Below are positions 40,589 to 59,549 of a stretch of 64,000 nt of DNA, one piece after another; positions within the stretch are counted from its first letter, which is position 1; the number at the start of each line of letters is the position of its first letter. The translations under genes and the position numbers were made by a program. The notes beneath the pieces are model-generated. The model had not been told where the DNA came from and made no database searches. It saw only the letters and a program-made list of their open reading frames with translations. The stretch is taken from the NCBI RefSeq assembly GCF_021028975.2, contig NC_059425.1, positions 124,868,001 through 124,932,000 on the forward strand. The letters run 5' to 3'. The stretch is from Sphaerodactylus townsendi (Eukaryota).

Positions 40589-40788
40589 TTGGTGTACAAA
40601 CACATCAACCGGTGCTTCCAAGGGGCTTCCCTCCCGGTTGATCATGGAAATAAATCCGAATCCCATTCGCACATTGAACCATTTGCAATGGCCCGTTCCG
40701 TGCAAGACCTGGGATTCCTCCTCCTCTTCCTCTTCCTCCTCTTGTTCCGGCAATTTCCCGGGTTCATCTCCACCTTTACTCGCCCCCG
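40589..40788 (-). CDS. LIN28B: LIN28B coding exon 2 (N-terminus and first half of cold-shock domain)
   Basis: Acceptor ttgccaaaccag| and donor CACCAA|GTAAGC bound 200 nt encoding (A)GASKGGDEPGKLPEQE9SQVLHGTGHCKWFNVRMGFGFISMINREGSPLEAPVDVFVHQ. This includes RNP1-like GFGF and RNP2-like VFVH motifs. The MINREGSPL and GDEPGKLP segments are B-paralogue-like rather than LIN28A-like. Confidence 0.98.
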
Positions 40789-41795
40789 CTGGTTTGGCAA
40801 AAGGAGGGCGGAAAACAAACACACAACAAAGGCAAAGAGTTAAATTCGAGAACCATCCCCTTGGCGCTTATCCAAGAGCGATTGCTTCAGAGGGCAGCAA
40901 ACACATGCCCGCCCGGAGGAACATTAGGAAATCCTCTCTCTCTCTCTCTCTGCGGGCAGCAACACCCACCCCAACGTCATACATTACGGTGTTTAGGGTC
41001 TTAAGGGAAAGCTTCCAAGCATCAGCAGGAAGGCGGCATCTGCTAAAATTTACTCTGCTTGGATTCTCCTTTTTTGCACAATACACGCGCGCAACCCCCC
41101 CCTCCCCCCGGAGCAGGCTGACCCCCTCTGCCCCGTACAGGCTCTGCCCTTTCATGCTATCTCTCACCACCACCACCACCTCCCGCAACCTCCCCAGAAA
41201 GCTATACTTTACTTGGATACTGCTGGTTGAGCACCGATCCCATCCCTGCCCAGAGGAATTCGCAGGCGACTGAGCCTCGGCCGGCCGGGCGAGGAAGCAG
41301 GAGGAGGAGGCGGCGAGGAGGAGGAGGAGAAGGAGGGGGGCGACCTAGCCGAGCGGAGAGGCGATTGCACAACTTGGAACGGCCCATCCAGCAGCCGGAG
41401 CCGCAAGCGCCGTGTGCTGGGGGGCCGAGGCGCTCATCCTCCTCGCGCTCGTCGCCCCCGGAGCCCGCACTCCGACATCCCTTCCAAGTCGGAGGAGGAG
41501 GGGGCAGGTGTCCGAGGCTTTCGTTGCCCCCCCTCTTTCTCCCCTTTCCCTCGGCCGCTGCTTGCTCAATCGCGCACGAACAATCGGCACAAAAGCCCCC
41601 TCGGCCAGCTTTGCAAGTTGGGTGAATCGGAGTGGGCGGTGCGCGGCGCTGGGGAGAGCCCGGCTCCAAGGGGGCTGCCTGTTCCCTCCCTCCCCTCTCT
41701 GTTAAAGGGGCTCTTGAAAAGGGGGAGGGTCGACGGAGCCGAAACAAAACCGCAGGGGGGAAATGCAACCCGGGCGGGGAGGGGGAAGAATTAAC

Positions 41796-41805
41796 CTTCG
41801 GCCAT
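41796..41805 (-). CDS. LIN28B: LIN28B coding exon 1 (ATG GCC GAA G, phase-1 donor)
   Basis: The minus strand reads GGGGCAAC ATG GCC GAA G|GTTAAT: good Kozak context and a GT donor at 41795-41794. It joins exon 2 in frame to give MAEAGASKGG, matching the LIN28B N-terminus. Confidence 0.93.
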
Positions 41806-42030
41806 GTTGCCCCGCGGGCCCTCCACTCCGAAGCGGCGACGCGGACGGTCAACCCCGGCTGGCTCTCAGCAGCCTCGGGCGTCAGCCGAACATCTTGATC
41901 GGACGCGGCCCCCCCTGTGGCTCGCATGGTCCAGCGCGCCCTCCTGCCAGTCTCTCTCCTCTCCCCCCCCCCCACGCGGCTCCCGCACCACTCCGGGAGC
42001 CCCGCGGGCACGTGACGCGCTCAATTACAA
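41806..42030 (-). promoter_or_regulatory. LIN28B 5' UTR with two upstream ATGs (41927, 41893) and an E-box near the TSS
   Basis: Minus strand: AATTGAGCGCGTCACGTG...GGACCATGCGAGC...ATCAAGATGTTCGGCTGA...GAGGGCCCGCGGGGCAACATG. The blocks resemble the human LIN28B 5' UTR as I recall it. Confidence 0.75.
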
Positions 42031-45199: not shown

Positions 45200-48000
45200 A
45201 CAAAGGACTTTCGCCTTTTAAGTTCGGCGGAAGGTAAAGAGCCCAGAACGGTTCCCTTTCTCGGCCGCGCAACAGCAAAAGCCGGGAACGATATTTAGTG
45301 CGAAGGGGGTTCGTGGAAAAGCCACGACTCAGCAAGACTCGGGCAGCCCGCCTAGGCATGAGTCGTGAAACAGCAGCCCTGCGGTTGCAGAGGCGCTCCG
45401 CCCCACCTCAGCACAGGATCGCGCTCCCAAGCCGACCCCACCCCCAGGCCGAGATCCCTTTGATCCTGCCTCCCACAATCTTTCCAAAAGTCCCGCTTCC
45501 TTGGCAGAACGCCCCTTGCTTGGGCGGTTGCGTTTGTGAGGAGGTCCCCTCCGTCCTTCGGGTGGCCTCAGCAGCACCGGGCAGCCGTGTGACCCGTCGC
45601 TCAAAAAACCCTGCGTCCCGGCGCTGGCCTCTCTCCGGTCCTTCGACGTGTGGGAAGAGGAGAGCCCCACTTTTCTTGTCTGGGAGTAAAGAAAGCCGTT
45701 CGGAAGGCTTTGGCACGCGCACTGCACCACTTAAGGGAAGGACGGCTCAGCCTGCGCAGGGAAAAGCCAAATCCCACCCCCACCCCCCGCGGCGGAGGTC
45801 AGGCGACAGGAGGGTCCTAGCGCTGGCTTAGCCTGAGAACCTAGGCTGGTCCAAAGCAGATCTCCAAGACCGGCGCTCGCCTGGCGGCGTTTCTGACTTC
45901 AGCTGTAACCCTGACCCACCTTAAAAAAAACTTTGCCCCGAGAAAAACCTAGTTTCGGCAAGGTTGGAAAGGAAACCACTCTGCACATGTTCAGTAGCTT
46001 CCTCTCTGATACTTTCACATATGCCAAGCCGTCAATTTTGCAAAAGCGAAGGAAACCTAAGCGCTTGCAGCAAGTTTCGCACGTACACAAGCTGCAGGAT
46101 GGCGGGAATATTCTGCCCTCTCGGTAGTTGCGAGCTTCTTCCCTACTTGCAGCAGCTCCTTTCGCTGCTTTCTGCCAGAAAATATCCGCGAGGCGAAGAC
46201 TAGAATAATAGCACAGCTACTTGTTACGTGCCCTAAAAGCCGTATCCTCACGATACTTTCAAGACCCTGACAGTATCTATTCAAAGCGGGGCCAGGTTAA
46301 CTTCATTTTTAGCAAACCGGTCCCTCAGTAGAGAACTGAATCAATCGTAGAAATTGCCTCGACGGAACAGGCTTGATCGCTCTTGCAAGCGAACTTTATC
46401 ACGGGAAATTCTCTTGGAAATCTTCAAGCGCTTCCCTGGGAGAAAACCTCCAGCGGCACTTCCTTCTAAGTAAGCCAACACAGTAACCAGCCCAGTTGGA
46501 GCGAAAGGGGGCGGTGCAGAGGCAGCTTCTGTTTTAGGTTTCCGTGGGACGTCGACTAAATTGAATGGAAATTGACCAAGGGTCCACCGGTGGGCTCATA
46601 GCACCCAAAGATGCCCAGAACCCGAACTTTATCCTTGAAAATTTATGTCAGGTTTATCAAGAGACGCATTATTACCGTGTGTTTCGTTTTTTAAAACACA
46701 CATCAATAATTTAGTTTCGACTAACTTTGGCGGAAAGGTTCCGAAAGTCCCTTCGCTTCCTTTCAGCTGTAAAATTAAAAGTGTAGTAAGAGGATCTTCC
46801 TCTGGCGTGAAATAAAATAGGGGCCTTTCAGGAAAAGTCCTCTTCCAGGGTAGATATCCTTTTTTTTGCTACACACGTGATCAAGAGCGGTCGTCTGGAC
46901 CGCGGACCAGGTTTACGGAGCGCAAACTCTGCGGCGCAAATTTGCGGAACTGCAGGGGCGGGTCGGAGCCCCTCGGGATCCGGACAAAAGAACGGCAGCA
47001 GGAGTTGCGACGTGGGTGGAAATCGCGACGACCGAGAAGCCCGGGCAGTGTGCACGTCTGAAAGACCTTCGTCAAATTCAATCAGCGTTCAGGAGTACAA
47101 CTCCCGTTCCCCCCTCCCCCCCACCCAAGTTCGCTGTCCTGCAAACCGCCTTTCTTTTCACTAGACCTCCGTTTTTCCAGTTCCTGATTTTGGGAAGGAC
47201 AAGTAGAAATATTTGGAGTAAAGTGATAAACGACTCCCCCGCCCCCAAAATGATCCAGCACGCGAAGAGCCTCACGGCCGGGTCCCGCTAGCTTGCTTAA
47301 CTAGGAGAACTGTGAATGCGGCGCTTGCAGAGAGAAATCCGACGCGGGGCTCGTCGCCGCCCCCCCCCCCCCGCAGGGAAGTGTCATGTTTCAAACGCTC
47401 CCAATGGCAGGTCCGAGGCCTCCCAGCCAAACGGGACAGAGGGAGCGAGGCGATCCCTTCGGAGGCCAGCTCGTCCTTGGTGACCAACTGGCGTCAGCGG
47501 CTAAAGCAAAAGCCAGGGCGTGCTGCCACTGCACGGCCGGATCCCGTTCCCCTGAACAAAGTCGGCCTTACTTCCGAGTAATCTAGACTATCGGACTGCC
47601 GCAGCAACACCTGAGACTGAACTGCCTCGGCAGGAGCAGATAAGCGGCCCCATAATGGGATGGACATTAAAAAAAACTCCGGGGCAAAGAATGCAGGGAC
47701 AAACTGTTACGCCGCGGAAAGCAAAAAGCAATACAAAACAACTGAGCCAAGAGTTCCGACGTGCGGACTCACGTGCAAGCGCGTCACGGCTGCGGTTTGG
47801 ACTCACGATCGACCCGCAGCTCGGCCGGGGAGGGGGGCTCGTTCCGTCTCTCGCGTTCGTGGGCGGAGGTGCCGAGGCAGGGAGCAGGGAACCCGGGGGC
47901 GCTAGGGCCACGCGGAAGCAGCCCCGCAGGGGAGGAATCAGTTTTTCACTGGGGGATTTACAGGCTTCTATCGACTCCAGGACACGCGATTCCAGGGTGA
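45200..48000. promoter_or_regulatory. Second upstream CpG-rich domain
   Basis: CpG retained at only moderate GC content. CACGTG at 46874-46879 and 47770-47775. No recognisable coding ORF. Confidence 0.7.
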
Positions 48001-51000
48001 TTTTAGTACATGGTCACCGTACTTGGAAATAAAGGTATCTAGAAGTCTATGGAACTTACTCCCGAGTAAACCTAGTAAATACCTGGCTTCACCTCAGAAC
48101 GATATCATATCTCTGACCAGTGATCCTTTTGAGTTTTACTGGCCAATAAATTCATATGAGCAAATGTAGTTTGTTTTTTTTTTTTAAAAAAAAGGTCAAA
48201 TGCTGCAAAGCAGAGGATAGAAAGTGCTTTTCCTTTCTGGCTGACAAACATTCTTCCAGCTCCCTGCATGTGAATGTAAAATTATGCTTTCTTTCCAAGC
48301 CCCCCCCCTCCCAACTCCTAACAGAAGGCCAGCCTGAAGCTATAGGTACAGTAGACAACACAATTCCTGCCATGGTGTGGGATATCTCTTCCACACTGCA
48401 AACTTACTCTCCCCTCCACAAGCCATGTGGCTCAGAAATGCCCATGTCACTTGTTCTCAGTCAGGTAAAAGGAGCTGAAAACAAGCAATTCTTTTGGACA
48501 GGACCAAGCAGCAATCATTCTGAATTACCTTTTCCTTTCTCTATTCAGGGTCTGAAAACAAAGATAGTCTGGGTAGTCAAGATTTGGGTAGTCAGCAACA
48601 TGTGTTGCTGAAAATCTGGCAAGTTTGTTGAAAAGATACTGGTAACTTGTGTAACTTCTCCACACCTCCTGCACATCATTTGGAAGATGAACCAGAAGGA
48701 GGGAGCATTTATATGTAATTGACAAATACCTTGTTTCTTTACTGGATCAGTTGAAAGCAAAATATCTTCCAGTTAGTTTTTAATTTTATTTTTTCCTGCA
48801 ACATTTTGAGGCCTTTTTTTGCATTTACATCATCTTAATATCATTGTATATGCCATTGTTTTTCAAACTGCTTTTACATAAATAGGAAGAATCTGTGACA
48901 GGAAATAGACTAAACCAAGGTACTAGCATGCCTACAGTGGGATTTGCTTTAAGAATAAAGCGAGTGACATTATGGGTATTTATTTACCATAGGTCCAGCG
49001 TGCTCGAATGAGAGCAGCACAGCCATTTTGACCTAGGATTATACTTCCAATAAATTAGTAGATTTCATGTGAATAAAACCTCCCCAACTTTTTGCAATAT
49101 GGCACCACTGCACACCAATTAATAGCCCTTAGATCCAAGGAACAATTGTTTTACATTCAGGAGCCAGAAGGCCAGAATCAGACTTTGACTGAAGTAGAAC
49201 ATGTTCATTGGCTTATTCACACAGAAAATAACACTAATTCCAGGAAGCATACGGAAGGGTTTTTGTTTGTTACTCATTACAGTCACTAATGACATTGGCA
49301 ACCACAGACAGCACTAAGAGGGGAGGAGAAATAAAAAGGGAACTAACCTGGACTTGAAGAGACTTTCCAGAATGATCTCATAGTCTTCTGAGGTACCTAG
49401 AAATCAGAGAGCTGCAGTCATTACCATGTTAATTTGGCTAGAGCACTGTATTTCATTACCTCTTCTCCAGTTTAATAGCTCATTAGAAGGCCATAAAATG
49501 CCAGTTCTTGACTCTATGAAGTGACCTGTAAACTTTTTAACAGGTTGAGACTTACCTAGCTCATCACAATTGGATAACCAGGTTGTATTCTAATCAGTCC
49601 AATGTACTGAAGGAAAAGGGCTTTTCACACTTTTGTCCTTTAAATGGATTTCTCCACAAAGCAAACTACCTCATGGTGCCTTGATTGCACAATGCATTAT
49701 TCACTTAATTGCACAAGCAATTCTTAAGTCTGCTGGTTGCTCATTCTCCAGTAGCACAATACACCATATAATAAGCATGTTACACACAATTCAAACATCC
49801 TAGAATGCACTTTGATCAAGTGCAGTAGCAATCCACATGGGAAGCAAAATTTAAACAACCATTTGTTTCTACTGAATATAGTTTGGATGAAGTCCGTGTG
49901 TTTATTTCATAGCCTTCAACAAACTGAAGAGGAAGTGGCTTGTTTTGTTGTCTAGTGCCTGTATATATCATTGTCCAATATTTATTTTGAAAAGTCAATA
50001 TGTTTAGAATGAAATGGTTCTCTTTTGGTTGTTTCTTCTTTTGAATAGCTGTACACTTTTTTAGACCATATTAAACTAGAACAGGGCATACACACCTCAG
50101 AAATTGACAGCATAAGAACCACTGCCCCAACCTTGCTTCTTCAAGTCAACACAGTTATAAACCTAACATACTTCAAGGTTTTCTTCTGGTGCTGTGAACC
50201 ATAACACTTTAAAATCTGAATTCTCTTTACTTCTTCCAGAAATCAATCAAGCAAAAAAACTTAGCTAAGAATCCCGACAGTTATGGCAATTCGATATTCT
50301 GTAAGTTGCTGTAAATACTTGTTTATTGTAATTGTTTGTTATTGAAGGTAATGGATAAATCTTATCACAGTACACATAAAGCTACATTCTTTAAGTCCAT
50401 ATTCAGTACGCACTAAAATCACATGTCTATTTTACTCCTGCATCTTGCAGATTACAGACACATAGTATCCTAGTATGTGTGAATTATACAGAAATATCTG
50501 ATGAGTGAATGGAGTTTGCTTTTCTCATTCTAAGAGCAAAAGTATGTGGATTACCACTAATGCTATTGCAAAAGAGACAGCATTACTCGATGATAATTTA
50601 TCTTCTGGGATATAAGCAACAGGTTTATTACTACAAATTCATCTTCACTGTATATCACTCACCAAGCAGAGCACTCAAGTTTAACTATGAATAATTAAAA
50701 ATGAGATACTTTTTTCTCATGAAACAGCTGAATTGTATTTAGGTGGTGGAAGCTCCACTATTTCATTCTTGTAAACAAGACAATCAACTTGCACAGTTTG
50801 GGTCCTGTCATTTGTTGTGGTTAAATCCTGCTACTATTAAGCTCCTGTTGCAATAATTCCTGGATGACTGATTTCCCTGCTCTTCATTCCAATTCATTAG
50901 TACTTAAAGTCTTCTCCCTTGTGCTTGTGTTGTGCCTGCCATTCATTATGCTCAGGTGTTTCACAATCACATCTGCCAGTCATTAGGCTAGCATGTTCCT

Positions 51001-57000: not shown

Positions 57001-57519
57001 ATCTAGTTGTCCATCTCTCTCTTTCTCTTCTCGCTCCTTATCTTAGCATCCAAATACACAATCTGTCGCTTCTGGCTCGTTCTCCCGCCGCCAAAAGTTC
57101 TGTCTCGGGTTAATCCCCTTTAGGCTCTTCCTTTCCTCGCTACCATAAGATTAGTTGCTTTTTGCACATATAAAGCAAGACCTCTGCGCAACAAGGCGGG
57201 GGTGGGTGGGGAGAGACAAGAGGCAAACGGAGTGGGGGAAATAAGGAAAGGGTGCGATGCCCCCTGGCGTCCAGTTAAGGTAGCACGACCTGCAGGTACC
57301 TCTGGCTCTCTTAAGCGAGTAAGTTGCTACAACCATTCTGCAAGCCAAATGCAGCTCAGCAGCCCTCGTGCACGGGGCGGGAAACGTCTTGTTTCTATTC
57401 CATTGCTTTGAAAAGAGAGTCAATCTGCAGGGCTGAGTTTAAAGGTTCGATAAGGGGAAGGAAGGAGGAAAAAAAGGTGTGAACCCGGAAGTACACCCAC
57501 CTGCTCAGCATCCCATCGG

Positions 57520-58220
57520 CAAACACAGAATCCCCCACGCCTCCCCAGCAACTTTTCCTTGTTAGGAAAAAAAAAGCCATACACCCCTCCTTTGAGAAAG
57601 GTGCCCGCGGCAGAGAAGGCGCTCGCTTACCTTCCTCGCGCCATGGTGGCTGGGCTCGTGCGCCTTAGGCGTGAAAAATGGACGGGAGACTCTCGGAGGG
57701 ACGCGGGGTGGGCGGGGAGTGAGGGATGGGTGGGTGCGTGGGTGGGTGGAGGGGGAAGGAGGAGCAGAGATGCCCGCGTTGCCTGCCGGCGCCGAGGCAC
57801 CAGCCACTAACTTGGCGCCGCCGTGGGCGCCCACCTGCTTAAGCCCACCCGCCCGCTGGTCCCATTGGCCGCGCCAGCCGCCGCGAGCAAGAAAGTCCGC
57901 CCTCGAGCGGCTGACTTGCCAAACGCAGGGCGCAGATTCTCCGCACTGGCGTCAAGCTCCCCGCCCCGCGAAACCACGCCCCCCCCAGGCGGCCCCGGCA
58001 GCTGTTCGCGTTCCCGCAGGAGGCAGGTAAGCCCGTGCGGGTCAAAGACTGGCCCGAACCTCTTCCTTCTGGCTTCTCTTTCTTGTGAGTTTCGCACGGA
58101 GCCACACACCTCCCACCCAGGTTGCAGATCGCGACTGTTTATCGAGAAGCTAGGCTAAGGCTGGCTAGCAACGTATCCTGGTTCAGCGGTAGACGTCTGC
58201 TTTGCGAGCGGGAGGATCCA
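57520..58220. promoter_or_regulatory. Distal CpG island, putative bidirectional promoter about 16 kb upstream of LIN28B
   Basis: CpG-dense, with GC boxes and ATTGG (CCAAT) at about 57864. Outward-facing donors: AG|GTAAGC on minus (57630) and CAG|GTAAGC on plus (58027). Confidence 0.75.
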
Positions 58221-59549
58221 GGACAGGTCCAGTCTTAAAAGCATCCTAGAGAGCTGCTGCCAACCAAATGAGGCCATGCTGACCTTTAGTTTGAGGTCAG
58301 CTTCATGTGTCCATACTAGAAACCGGGGGGAAAGAAAGGCTTAGAAAAGAGTCCTTTCTTGATGTTTGTTGGCACAGTGTAGTGTCCATCCTGCCACTTC
58401 TCCTGGTTATGAGCTTTTTTTTTTAAAAAAAGGACTTGTTTATTTCAAAGGTATGCAGCTGACTTACTGAGTCAGAGACCACCATTTCGCATCGACAACT
58501 ATTTCAAGCGAACCATCACACAGATTTTTCACAGCCCCAGGAATTTTTTAGCTAGGGATACTGGGAACCGAACCTGAGAGCAAAGGAGGTGCTCTTAAAA
58601 ACGCTACACTCCTAGTATGGACTTTTTAACCTTACTGAGATGCTTGCCTTCCTCAGCAAAACTCTCCCTAGCAAACCCCTTCCAAAATGTGAAATGGTAG
58701 TCTTGAAGTCCTGATAGACTTGAAATATAAATTCAAAAATATTAATATAATTTACTCCATTCCAATCAGAAATCATCAGCTCTTAAAAAAAAACATTTAA
58801 ACCAAAAAGTCTATCTGGATTTCCAGTTAATAATAAACTTAGAGAAGTTCTTTAATCAGAGGAGCATACTTAGCCACCTCAGCTAGTTCCAATATTTTCA
58901 CAAGCCATTCTTCTACTATGGGTACGAATGAAGTTTTCCATTAAAAAATATTTTATTAGATTTAATATCCTGCCCTTTCATGGCACGGGGCTAGGCACAT
59001 ATTTTTGTTGCCAATGTTATATATAAAAACATAATTTTTCAAATTGTCTGTTTATAAGACCCCAAAGGAAAGTTTCTGGTTTCATTTGTATATTGGTCTT
59101 TAAAATCTTCTGGATTACTGAATATATCAAATAAATTTTTTTTTGCTTTATTACAAGTCCACCATTAATGGCAAAATGACCCTTCACGGTGTTCGTATTT
59201 CCAGCACACATTCAGAATATTTCTCCCGTGGCAAATGCCAATGATACATCACTTTCTAGAAATTCTCTTTGAGAATGAATGTAAATTTAAGACCGCTTAA
59301 CCACATATGGGTCTTTTCTGTATGAATTGTTTACAATGTATCATATTTTCGAATGCTACTTTTTCCCTTTAAATTCTGCACTAGTGGTAAAGCCCATTTG
59401 ATGGTGAAATAAAATGGGCTCTAGAGGGGGGAAGAATTAATATATAGTTAATAAATGAACAGTCTCCTTGCCCCTCCCTGCAACCCTTAAGGAGTTGCTC
59501 CACCCCACAGTGGGGTTTCATTGAATCCATCGGCCAGGCATCCCAGATA

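What the first reader, a model, noticed from the sequence alone, without database searches (positions are those of the whole stretch)
57625..58032. Distal bidirectional promoter with divergent first exons and a perfect Kozak ATG pointing at LIN28B
The minus strand reads GCCACC ATG GCG CGA GGA AG|GTAAGC (ATG 57644, donor 57630): an exact Kozak consensus 14 nt before a strong donor. About 400 nt away, the plus strand has CAG|GTAAGC (58027). CCAAT, GC-box and TGACG-like motifs lie between them. This looks like an alternative LIN28B first exon head-to-head with an antisense lncRNA, a position like that of human LIN28B-AS1 as I recall it. Direct splicing to exon 2 gives only MARGSGGE-stop, so the strong ATG would either act as a uORF favouring a short isoform or need a 3n+2 intermediate exon. 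Human upstream LIN28B isoforms are best known from a primate Alu promoter, so a non-repeat reptile equivalent would be notable.
Basis: partly seen in the sequence, partly recalled or inferred. Interest (0 to 1): 0.7.

Follow-up and report, generated by a model that had tools for sequence, protein, structure and literature searches.

The report
Gecko LIN28B distal promoter with uORF
This CpG island 16 kb upstream of a gecko's LIN28B gene is likely the reptile counterpart of a far promoter already reported in mouse and human, and its strong start codon would open a 10-codon reading frame that ends on, and so likely dampens, the start of a longer LIN28B protein.

Summary
The divergent donor pair and the Kozak ATG exceed shuffles (8 and 17 of 5000); the CCAAT, GC-box and TGACG motifs do not. 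It encodes the start of a longer LIN28B isoform annotated from sharks to mammals. The island is unique and is the only one between that exon and the HACE1 promoter, so it likely supplies the missing first exon. If so, the Kozak ATG opens a 10-codon uORF whose TGA overlaps the exon's ATG (ATGA), most likely repressing that isoform. No RNA run was available, so transcription, splicing and translation are untested, and conservation of the ATG could not be tested. A non-Alu distal Lin28b promoter is already reported in mouse, which lowers novelty. The scan noted the same internal exon earlier in a shark (e1-9507051). In passing: a 92-codon counterpart of the mouse PLUM uORF is intact here.

The parts
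57501..58300 (.). Distal CpG island, likely bidirectional promoter
   Evidence: GC 0.63, CpG o/e 0.78, 62 CpG; only island between the 49-nt exon and the HACE1 island; tested stretches single copy. Promoter activity inferred.
57631..57800 (-). Candidate distal first exon of LIN28B (3' end fixed by the donor; 5' end unknown, 57800 is a guess from CCAAT spacing)
   Evidence: Donor in sequence; exon use inferred, no RNA.
57641..57650 (-). Full Kozak context with upstream ATG (A at 57644)
   Evidence: Sequence; 17 of 5000 shuffles; unchanged in organism B, an uninformative close relative.
57625..57630 (-). 5' splice site AAG|GTAAGC
   Evidence: 7 of 9 matches to the donor consensus.
58027..58032 (+). 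5' splice site CAG|GTAAGC of a candidate divergent first exon (lncRNA or distal HACE1 leader)
   Evidence: 8 of 9 matches; no plus-strand ATG between 57773 and 58026.
57849..57966 (.). CCAAT (57864-57868), GC boxes (57849, 57897, 57961; a fourth at 57710) and CGTCA (57950)
   Evidence: Present, but at chance frequency.
49348..49396 (-). 49-nt internal exon: 15 nt, then ATG 49381 and MRSFWKVSSSP; acceptor TAG with pyrimidine fraction 0.71, donor CAG|GTTAGT
   Evidence: Peptide identical to the N-terminus of gecko isoforms P0001, P0129, P0145; this N-terminal class is 106 of 312 stored proteins; single copy.
49378..49381 (-). ATGA overlap: start codon of the long isoform and predicted uORF stop
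   Evidence: In-silico splice of the distal donor to this exon; all three tandem acceptor choices keep the frame.
40589..40788 (-). LIN28B exon 2 (cold-shock domain start)
41925..41927 (-). ATG of a PLUM-like overlapping uORF in the canonical 5' leader (92 codons after splicing to exon 2); same reading frame as the distal uORF
   Evidence: compared with PMC12657964.

Best explanation
The island is likely a bidirectional promoter whose minus-strand first exon would splice to a conserved 49-nt exon 8.2 kb away, and the Kozak ATG would then open a 10-codon upstream reading frame that stops on, and likely represses, the start codon of the long LIN28B isoform. Shown in sequence: island, donors, Kozak ATG, the 49-nt exon with its acceptor and own ATG, and the frame arithmetic. 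Inferred: transcription, the 57631-to-49396 junction, and translation. Predicted working: most scanning ribosomes start at the perfect-context ATG, translate 10 codons and terminate on the ATGA. Only leaky scanners reach the weaker start (A at -3, A at +4) of the long isoform. Ribosomes that reinitiate meet out-of-frame ATGs 51, 136 and 144 nt on and the first in-frame ATG 152 nt on, which would give a short protein cut inside the cold-shock domain. The plus-strand exon is likely non-coding and runs toward HACE1.
For: The 49-nt exon has an acceptor and a conserved 5' stretch (VPQKT here; the same or similar letters in passerines, turtles, a worm lizard, frogs and a chimaera; 16 of 312 proteins extend into it), so it behaves as an internal exon that needs an upstream exon. 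Frog and passerine models extend into such an exon. Lizard records of this isoform carry 2-3 accessions per protein (P0123, P0132, P0145), which fits several 5' leaders, though P0145 may be this species' own annotation. The island is the only one between that exon and HACE1. A crude filter found a good acceptor for 1 of 8 minus-strand donors in between (56791, a 78-nt 3n candidate that would not change the frame). Donor pair and Kozak beat shuffles. Mouse has a long Lin28b isoform from an upstream promoter; human has an upstream CpG-island DMR and a 258-aa isoform, the length of the mammalian MRSF-type proteins. Strong context and short uORF-CDS distance go with repression (PMC4890304); overlapping uORFs and main ORFs are described as mutually exclusive (PMC10275272).
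Against: No junction or cap evidence of any kind was obtained. The ATGA ending is not improbable in itself: of the two out-of-frame phases, one always ends there. Where upstream ATGs are visible in other lineages (frogs, passerines, a pond turtle) they are in frame with the 49-nt exon, unlike here, and those upstream peptides gave no convincing match to this island (the frog ones were compared by eye only). A perfect Kozak is atypical of uORFs (about 17% beat the median CDS context). A stronger donor (8 of 9) lies at 49555, 159 nt before the 49-nt exon, and could end a nearer first exon; a human promoter DMR about 5 kb upstream is also reported. Promoter motifs are at chance level.
Confidence: 0.5

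Rival explanations
1. The distal exon splices mainly straight to exon 2; the ATG makes an 8-codon uORF and reinitiation yields a short LIN28B.
For: Frame verified. 3 of 312 stored proteins start at the exon-2 in-frame Met. A human upstream start region is reported to give a 209-aa isoform; the mammalian sequences held give 210 aa from that Met, close but not equal.
Against: It would leave the conserved internal 49-nt exon without an island-borne first exon; that exon lies directly on the path. Both routes may coexist.
Confidence: 0.15
2. The promoter and exon are real, but the Kozak ATG is a lineage-specific accident or a promoter element (the ATGGCG core resembles a YY1 site; recalled, not tested) with no selected translational role.
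For: No conservation shown beyond a 1.2%-diverged relative, where no change in 38 nt is expected 63% of the time. After allowing for post-hoc choice a Kozak match has p about 0.04. Other lineages show differently framed ATGs.
Against: Any exon using the 57630 donor and longer than 14 nt carries the ATG, and a perfect context would be read whether selected or not.
Confidence: 0.17
3. The 49-nt exon is fed by a nearer start (its own, or an exon ending at 49555); the island serves only plus-strand transcription toward HACE1, or is an orphan island or enhancer.
For: Donor 8 of 9 at 49555; human DMR about 5 kb upstream called a promoter; HACE1 begins 19.6 kb beyond on the plus strand.
Against: The 49-51 kb region is AT-rich with no island; a strict minus-strand donor sits in the island (p 0.035 alone); mouse data place an alternative promoter upstream.
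Confidence: 0.13
4. The Kozak ATG is a true LIN28B start: splicing to a second AG 10 nt inside exon 2 (exon start 40778) puts it in frame and gives a full-length isoform about the size of the canonical one.
For: That junction gives an open frame through exon 2 and would explain the perfect Kozak.
Against: The AG is a GAG with pyrimidine fraction 0.35 against 0.76 for the normal acceptor 10 nt upstream; 0 of 312 stored LIN28 proteins begin this way.
Confidence: 0.05

Closest known systems
Mouse Lin28b-202 (ENSMUST00000214555), long isoform from an upstream alternative promoter (bioRxiv 10.1101/2023.10.17.562606, passages)
   Same: Upstream promoter with extra exons, not a primate Alu; rodent MRSF-type proteins exist.
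   Different: Orthology of the promoter DNA was not aligned; no distal uORF is mentioned in the passages seen.
Human LIN28B-TST / AluJb-LIN28B and the 258-aa isoform (PMC10296230, PMC10363060, PMC12247766; passages)
   Same: Upstream start adds N-terminal residues; 258 aa matches MRSF-type mammalian proteins.
   Different: Human start about 20 kb upstream in an Alu; here a unique CpG island 15.8 kb upstream and an out-of-frame ATG. That the human tumour transcript passes through the island exon and the 49-nt exon is recalled; the primary papers were not held.
Human LIN28B-AS1 and the placenta-imprinted upstream DMR (PMC10208000, PMC6390544; passages)
   Same: A lncRNA upstream of LIN28B and an upstream CpG-island region with active chromatin marks.
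   Different: No transcript shown here; a shared promoter in human is recalled, not read; the gecko exon could be a HACE1 leader.
Mouse PLUM, an 85-aa overlapping uORF of Lin28b (PMC12657964; sections 6 and 13, supplement passages)
   Same: Out-of-frame overlapping uORF that represses Lin28b in a start-codon-dependent way; the distal uORF is in the frame of the gecko PLUM-like ORF.
   Different: PLUM starts in the canonical leader and runs into exon 2; the distal uORF is 10 codons and stops in the 49-nt exon.
Viral TURBS stop-start reinitiation at AUGA/UAAUG (PMC10275272, passages)
   Same: AUGA overlap of stop and start.
   Different: Needs an upstream rRNA-pairing element; no TGGGA within 100 nt upstream of the stop in the model mRNA.

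Membership tests
LIN28B gene (vertebrate) | Cold-shock exons most similar to LIN28B, next to HACE1 | tested here: met
   96% to Gekko japonicus LIN28B; HACE1 exon 1 hit E 5e-9; HECT hits on the plus strand beyond it.
Long (MRSF-type) LIN28B isoform | Internal exon with acceptor, own ATG and phase-1 donor | tested here: met
   49396-49348.
Bidirectional CpG-island promoter | CpG island, non-repeat | tested here: met
Bidirectional CpG-island promoter | Divergent 5' splice sites flanking a core | tested here: met
   8 of 5000 shuffles; post-hoc choice noted.
Bidirectional CpG-island promoter | Enrichment of CCAAT, GC-box or CRE motifs | tested here: not met
   p 0.63, 0.07, 0.63.
Bidirectional CpG-island promoter | Capped transcripts in both directions | not testable with these tools
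   No RNA holder listed.
Orthologue of the mouse/human distal LIN28B promoter | Alignable DNA and the same junction | not testable with these tools
   No vertebrate relatives held; searches returned nothing usable. Position and synteny agree.
Repressive overlapping uORF | Out-of-frame ATG upstream, stop at or past the main ATG, stronger context | tested here: met
   In the in-silico spliced model only.
Repressive overlapping uORF | Translated, and lowers main-ORF output | not testable with these tools
   Needs ribosome profiling or reporters.
Repressive overlapping uORF | Conserved ATG and frame | tested here: inconclusive
   Only a 1.2%-diverged relative; in-frame ATGs in frogs and passerines.
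TURBS-type termination-reinitiation | UGGGA motif upstream of the stop-start (motif letters recalled) | tested here: not met
LIN28B-AS1 counterpart | Spliced non-coding transcript ending before HACE1 | not testable with these tools
   Donor only; 4 candidate acceptors within the window; no Rfam match in 40000-64000.

The most novel reading that the evidence does not exclude
Every LIN28B promoter is gated by its own out-of-frame uORF in one shared frame: PLUM on the canonical leader (intact from mouse to gecko) and a 10-codon AUGA stop-start uORF on the ancient distal leader. The distal transcript would be a translation-gated reserve, switched on by leaky scanning or by cellular stop-start reinitiation, and lineages would toggle it by moving the upstream ATG in or out of frame.
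Probability: 0.15. Interest if true: 0.65.

Novelty: new member of a known kind. Interest (0 to 1): 0.36.

Why it matters
LIN28B sets developmental timing through let-7 and is reactivated in tumours from upstream promoters (established knowledge). A unique CpG-island promoter feeding an exon as old as jawed vertebrates would mean that the Alu promoter taps into an ancient distal unit. A uORF ending exactly on the long isoform's start would uncouple RNA level from protein level for that unit and is easy to test with a reporter. The promoter itself is an expected orthologue, and nothing here is shown at RNA level.

Tried and rejected
RNA evidence: no RNA holder listed (4 runs, 1 study, 0 on record as RNA); no evidence either way. 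Laying the 4 runs on 57300-58400 gave no joints; all were contigs. Read coverage across the whole span from island to exon 2 was not obtained, so no junction could be looked for there. Conservation: organism B differs at 9 sites plus 1 gap in about 750 covered nt, none in the ATG, Kozak or donors, which is uninformative. A degenerate pattern for the 49-nt exon found 0 metagenome stretches; the protein scan gave 3 loci at 44-49% identity over the cold-shock region only, not used. A protein search with the island's 129-codon open frame found 0 of 32 candidates at E <= 1. Retrocopies: none matching the distal exon or the 49-nt exon in the own genome. N-termini of 18 stored isoforms gave no convincing match to the island. 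A tally of second residues was circular (the pattern forced it) and was redone: 44 of 50 distinct N-termini allow an A after the ATG (17 forced, 27 possible, 6 impossible), suggestive only. The bacterial promoter scan does not apply. No Rfam family; only short simple repeats. The extended exon ending at donor 57500, or an unspliced RNA, stops the uORF after 5 codons. Literature: 8 searches listed no paper on a reptile distal LIN28B promoter or on this uORF; most hits were seen as titles and abstract starts only.

Full report
Observation. The letters are as reported: a full Kozak ATG at 57644 on the minus strand, 14 nt before AAG|GTAAGC (57630), and CAG|GTAAGC at 58027 on the plus strand. They lie in a CpG island at 57501-58300; the two stretches searched are single copy in G000. 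In 5000 dinucleotide shuffles of 57400-58200 a divergent strict donor pair arose 8 times, a minus-strand Kozak 17 times, and Kozak plus donor within 60 nt never; CCAAT, GC-box and TGACG counts were ordinary. The region was chosen after the fact, so these values should be multiplied by about 6.

Gene and organism. Exon 2 (40788-40589) and exon 3 (6518-6334) encode LIN28B; the best hit is a gecko protein at 96%. One search found 397 proteins and stored 120; two cluster look-ups, listing at most 15 members per cluster, brought the set to 312. Their N-termini fall into three recurrent classes plus others: 76 canonical, 45 MGSV-type, 106 MRSF-type, 85 other. All three classes map to the window: start codons at 41805, 41243 and 49381. 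In 200 kb fetched beyond the window, the next island (77.3-77.9 kb on the extended scale) holds HACE1 exon 1 on the plus strand. The island of the finding is thus 15.8 kb upstream of the canonical LIN28B start and 19.6 kb before HACE1.

The missing piece. At 49396-49348 lies a 49-nt exon with a pyrimidine tract and TAG acceptor, 15 nt of leader, ATG, and a phase-1 donor. Its peptide equals the start of annotated gecko isoforms, and the class is found in sharks, frogs, turtles, birds, marsupials and placentals. In 16 of 312 proteins the frame extends upstream through the same 5-codon stretch; ten of these (6 passerine, 2 frog, 2 pond turtle) look like a spliced upstream exon with an in-frame ATG, six look like intron read-through (my reading by eye). 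So the exon is internal and needs a first exon further up. The island is the only one available before HACE1, and a crude filter found a good acceptor for just 1 of 8 minus-strand donors in between. An earlier agent reached the same view of this exon in a shark and reported a junction to a more distant first exon in a related species (e1-9507051; unreviewed, junction not checked by me).

Mechanism. Joining the island donor to the 49-nt exon puts the Kozak ATG one base out of frame: 10 codons, then a TGA made of the last two letters of the exon's ATG and the next A. Two alternative acceptors 9 and 12 nt further in keep that frame. The upstream ATG has the best context on the message; the exon's ATG has A at -3 and A at +4. 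Published analyses link strong context and short distance to repression (PMC4890304, passages) and describe overlapping uORF and main ORF as mutually exclusive, with AUGA reinitiation known from viruses that carry an rRNA-pairing element (PMC10275272, passages); the motif is absent within 100 nt here. The likely result is low, leaky output of the long isoform, some reinitiation at out-of-frame ATGs (51, 136, 144 nt on) or at the in-frame Met 152 nt on, and possible NMD sensitivity (inference). In the long isoform's frame the island is open for 107 codons with no ATG and four near-cognate codons below 57900, so a non-AUG extension is possible but unsupported.

Against this reading. No RNA run holds the stretch, so nothing is shown at transcript level. 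The ATGA ending is the outcome of one of two out-of-frame phases and is not evidence of design. Visible upstream ATGs in other lineages are in frame, although protein databases cannot show out-of-frame ones. The one relative available is too close to inform, and four other attempts at comparative sequence were empty or unusable. A stronger donor at 49555 offers a nearer first exon. An in-frame route through a second AG in exon 2 exists on paper but has a poor acceptor and 0 of 312 matching proteins.

Plus strand. The donor at 58027 is strong (8 of 9) and has no ATG in the 250 nt before it. It may end exon 1 of a LIN28B-AS1-like RNA or a distal HACE1 leader; the tools cannot separate these.

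What is known. Mouse hippocampus shows a long Lin28b isoform from an upstream promoter at an ATAC peak (bioRxiv 10.1101/2023.10.17.562606, passages). Human has an Alu-driven start about 20 kb upstream that adds N-terminal residues (PMC10296230, PMC10363060; passages), upstream start regions giving 258- and 209-aa isoforms (PMC12247766, passages; its results and discussion disagree on which state uses the Alu), an imprinted upstream region (PMC6390544, passages), a DMR about 5 kb upstream (PMC12336879, passages) and an upstream lncRNA (PMC10208000, passages). The two primary papers on the Alu transcript were not held. Eight searches listed nothing on a reptile distal promoter or this uORF.

Side finding. 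Mouse PLUM is an 85-aa uORF overlapping Lin28b exons 1 and 2, described as conserved among mammals (PMC12657964, abstract, sections 6 and 13, supplement passages; Fig. 1f not seen). The window has an ATG at 41927 that opens 92 codons in that arrangement. Its first 41 residues align with a lemur isoform's N-terminus at 37% (E 0.005), and correcting for rodent length differences predicts exactly 85 codons for mouse. The exon-2 part is open in 74% of synonymous resamplings, so only the start position and length agreement count. That this ORF is PLUM is inferred from length and position.

Verdict. A real feature, likely the gecko member of a known distal LIN28B promoter (about 0.7 that the exon is used), with a predicted start-stop uORF (about 0.5 for the whole model). 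Interest 0.36.

Noticed in passing
window 41927 (minus) through exon 2, stop near 40642: Intact 92-codon overlapping uORF matching mouse PLUM in position and corrected length (85); would extend PLUM beyond mammals.
   Followed up: partly
window 41243 (minus), upstream in-frame ATG at 41387: Third alternative first exon (MGSV-type), with an upstream in-frame extension shared with a leopard gecko and a python model.
   Followed up: partly
window 45201-46000 and 46801-48100: Two further CpG islands 3-6 kb upstream of the canonical start and downstream of the 49-nt exon, without strict donors; may correspond to the human DMR about 5 kb upstream.
   Followed up: no
window 49555 (minus): Strong donor (8 of 9) 159 nt before the 49-nt exon's acceptor; possible nearer first exon.
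   Followed up: partly
window 56869-56792 (minus): Candidate 78-nt (3n) cassette exon between the island and the 49-nt exon by a crude filter.
   Followed up: no
window 58245-58289: Short repeat fragment at the island's plus-side edge; many unrelated contigs align there in all four runs.
   Followed up: no
L003:3300-3900: HACE1 promoter island and exon 1 on the plus strand, 19.6 kb beyond the plus-strand donor.
   Followed up: yes
stored proteins P0289, P0296, P0009, P0163-P0168, P0210, P0221: Frog, passerine and pond-turtle LIN28B models have lineage-specific in-frame extensions upstream of the 49-nt exon, so the frame of the upstream ATG seems to vary between lineages.
   Followed up: partly
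stored proteins P0121, P0137: A lacertid and a snake share another 9-residue LIN28B N-terminus with no clear match in this window.
   Followed up: partly
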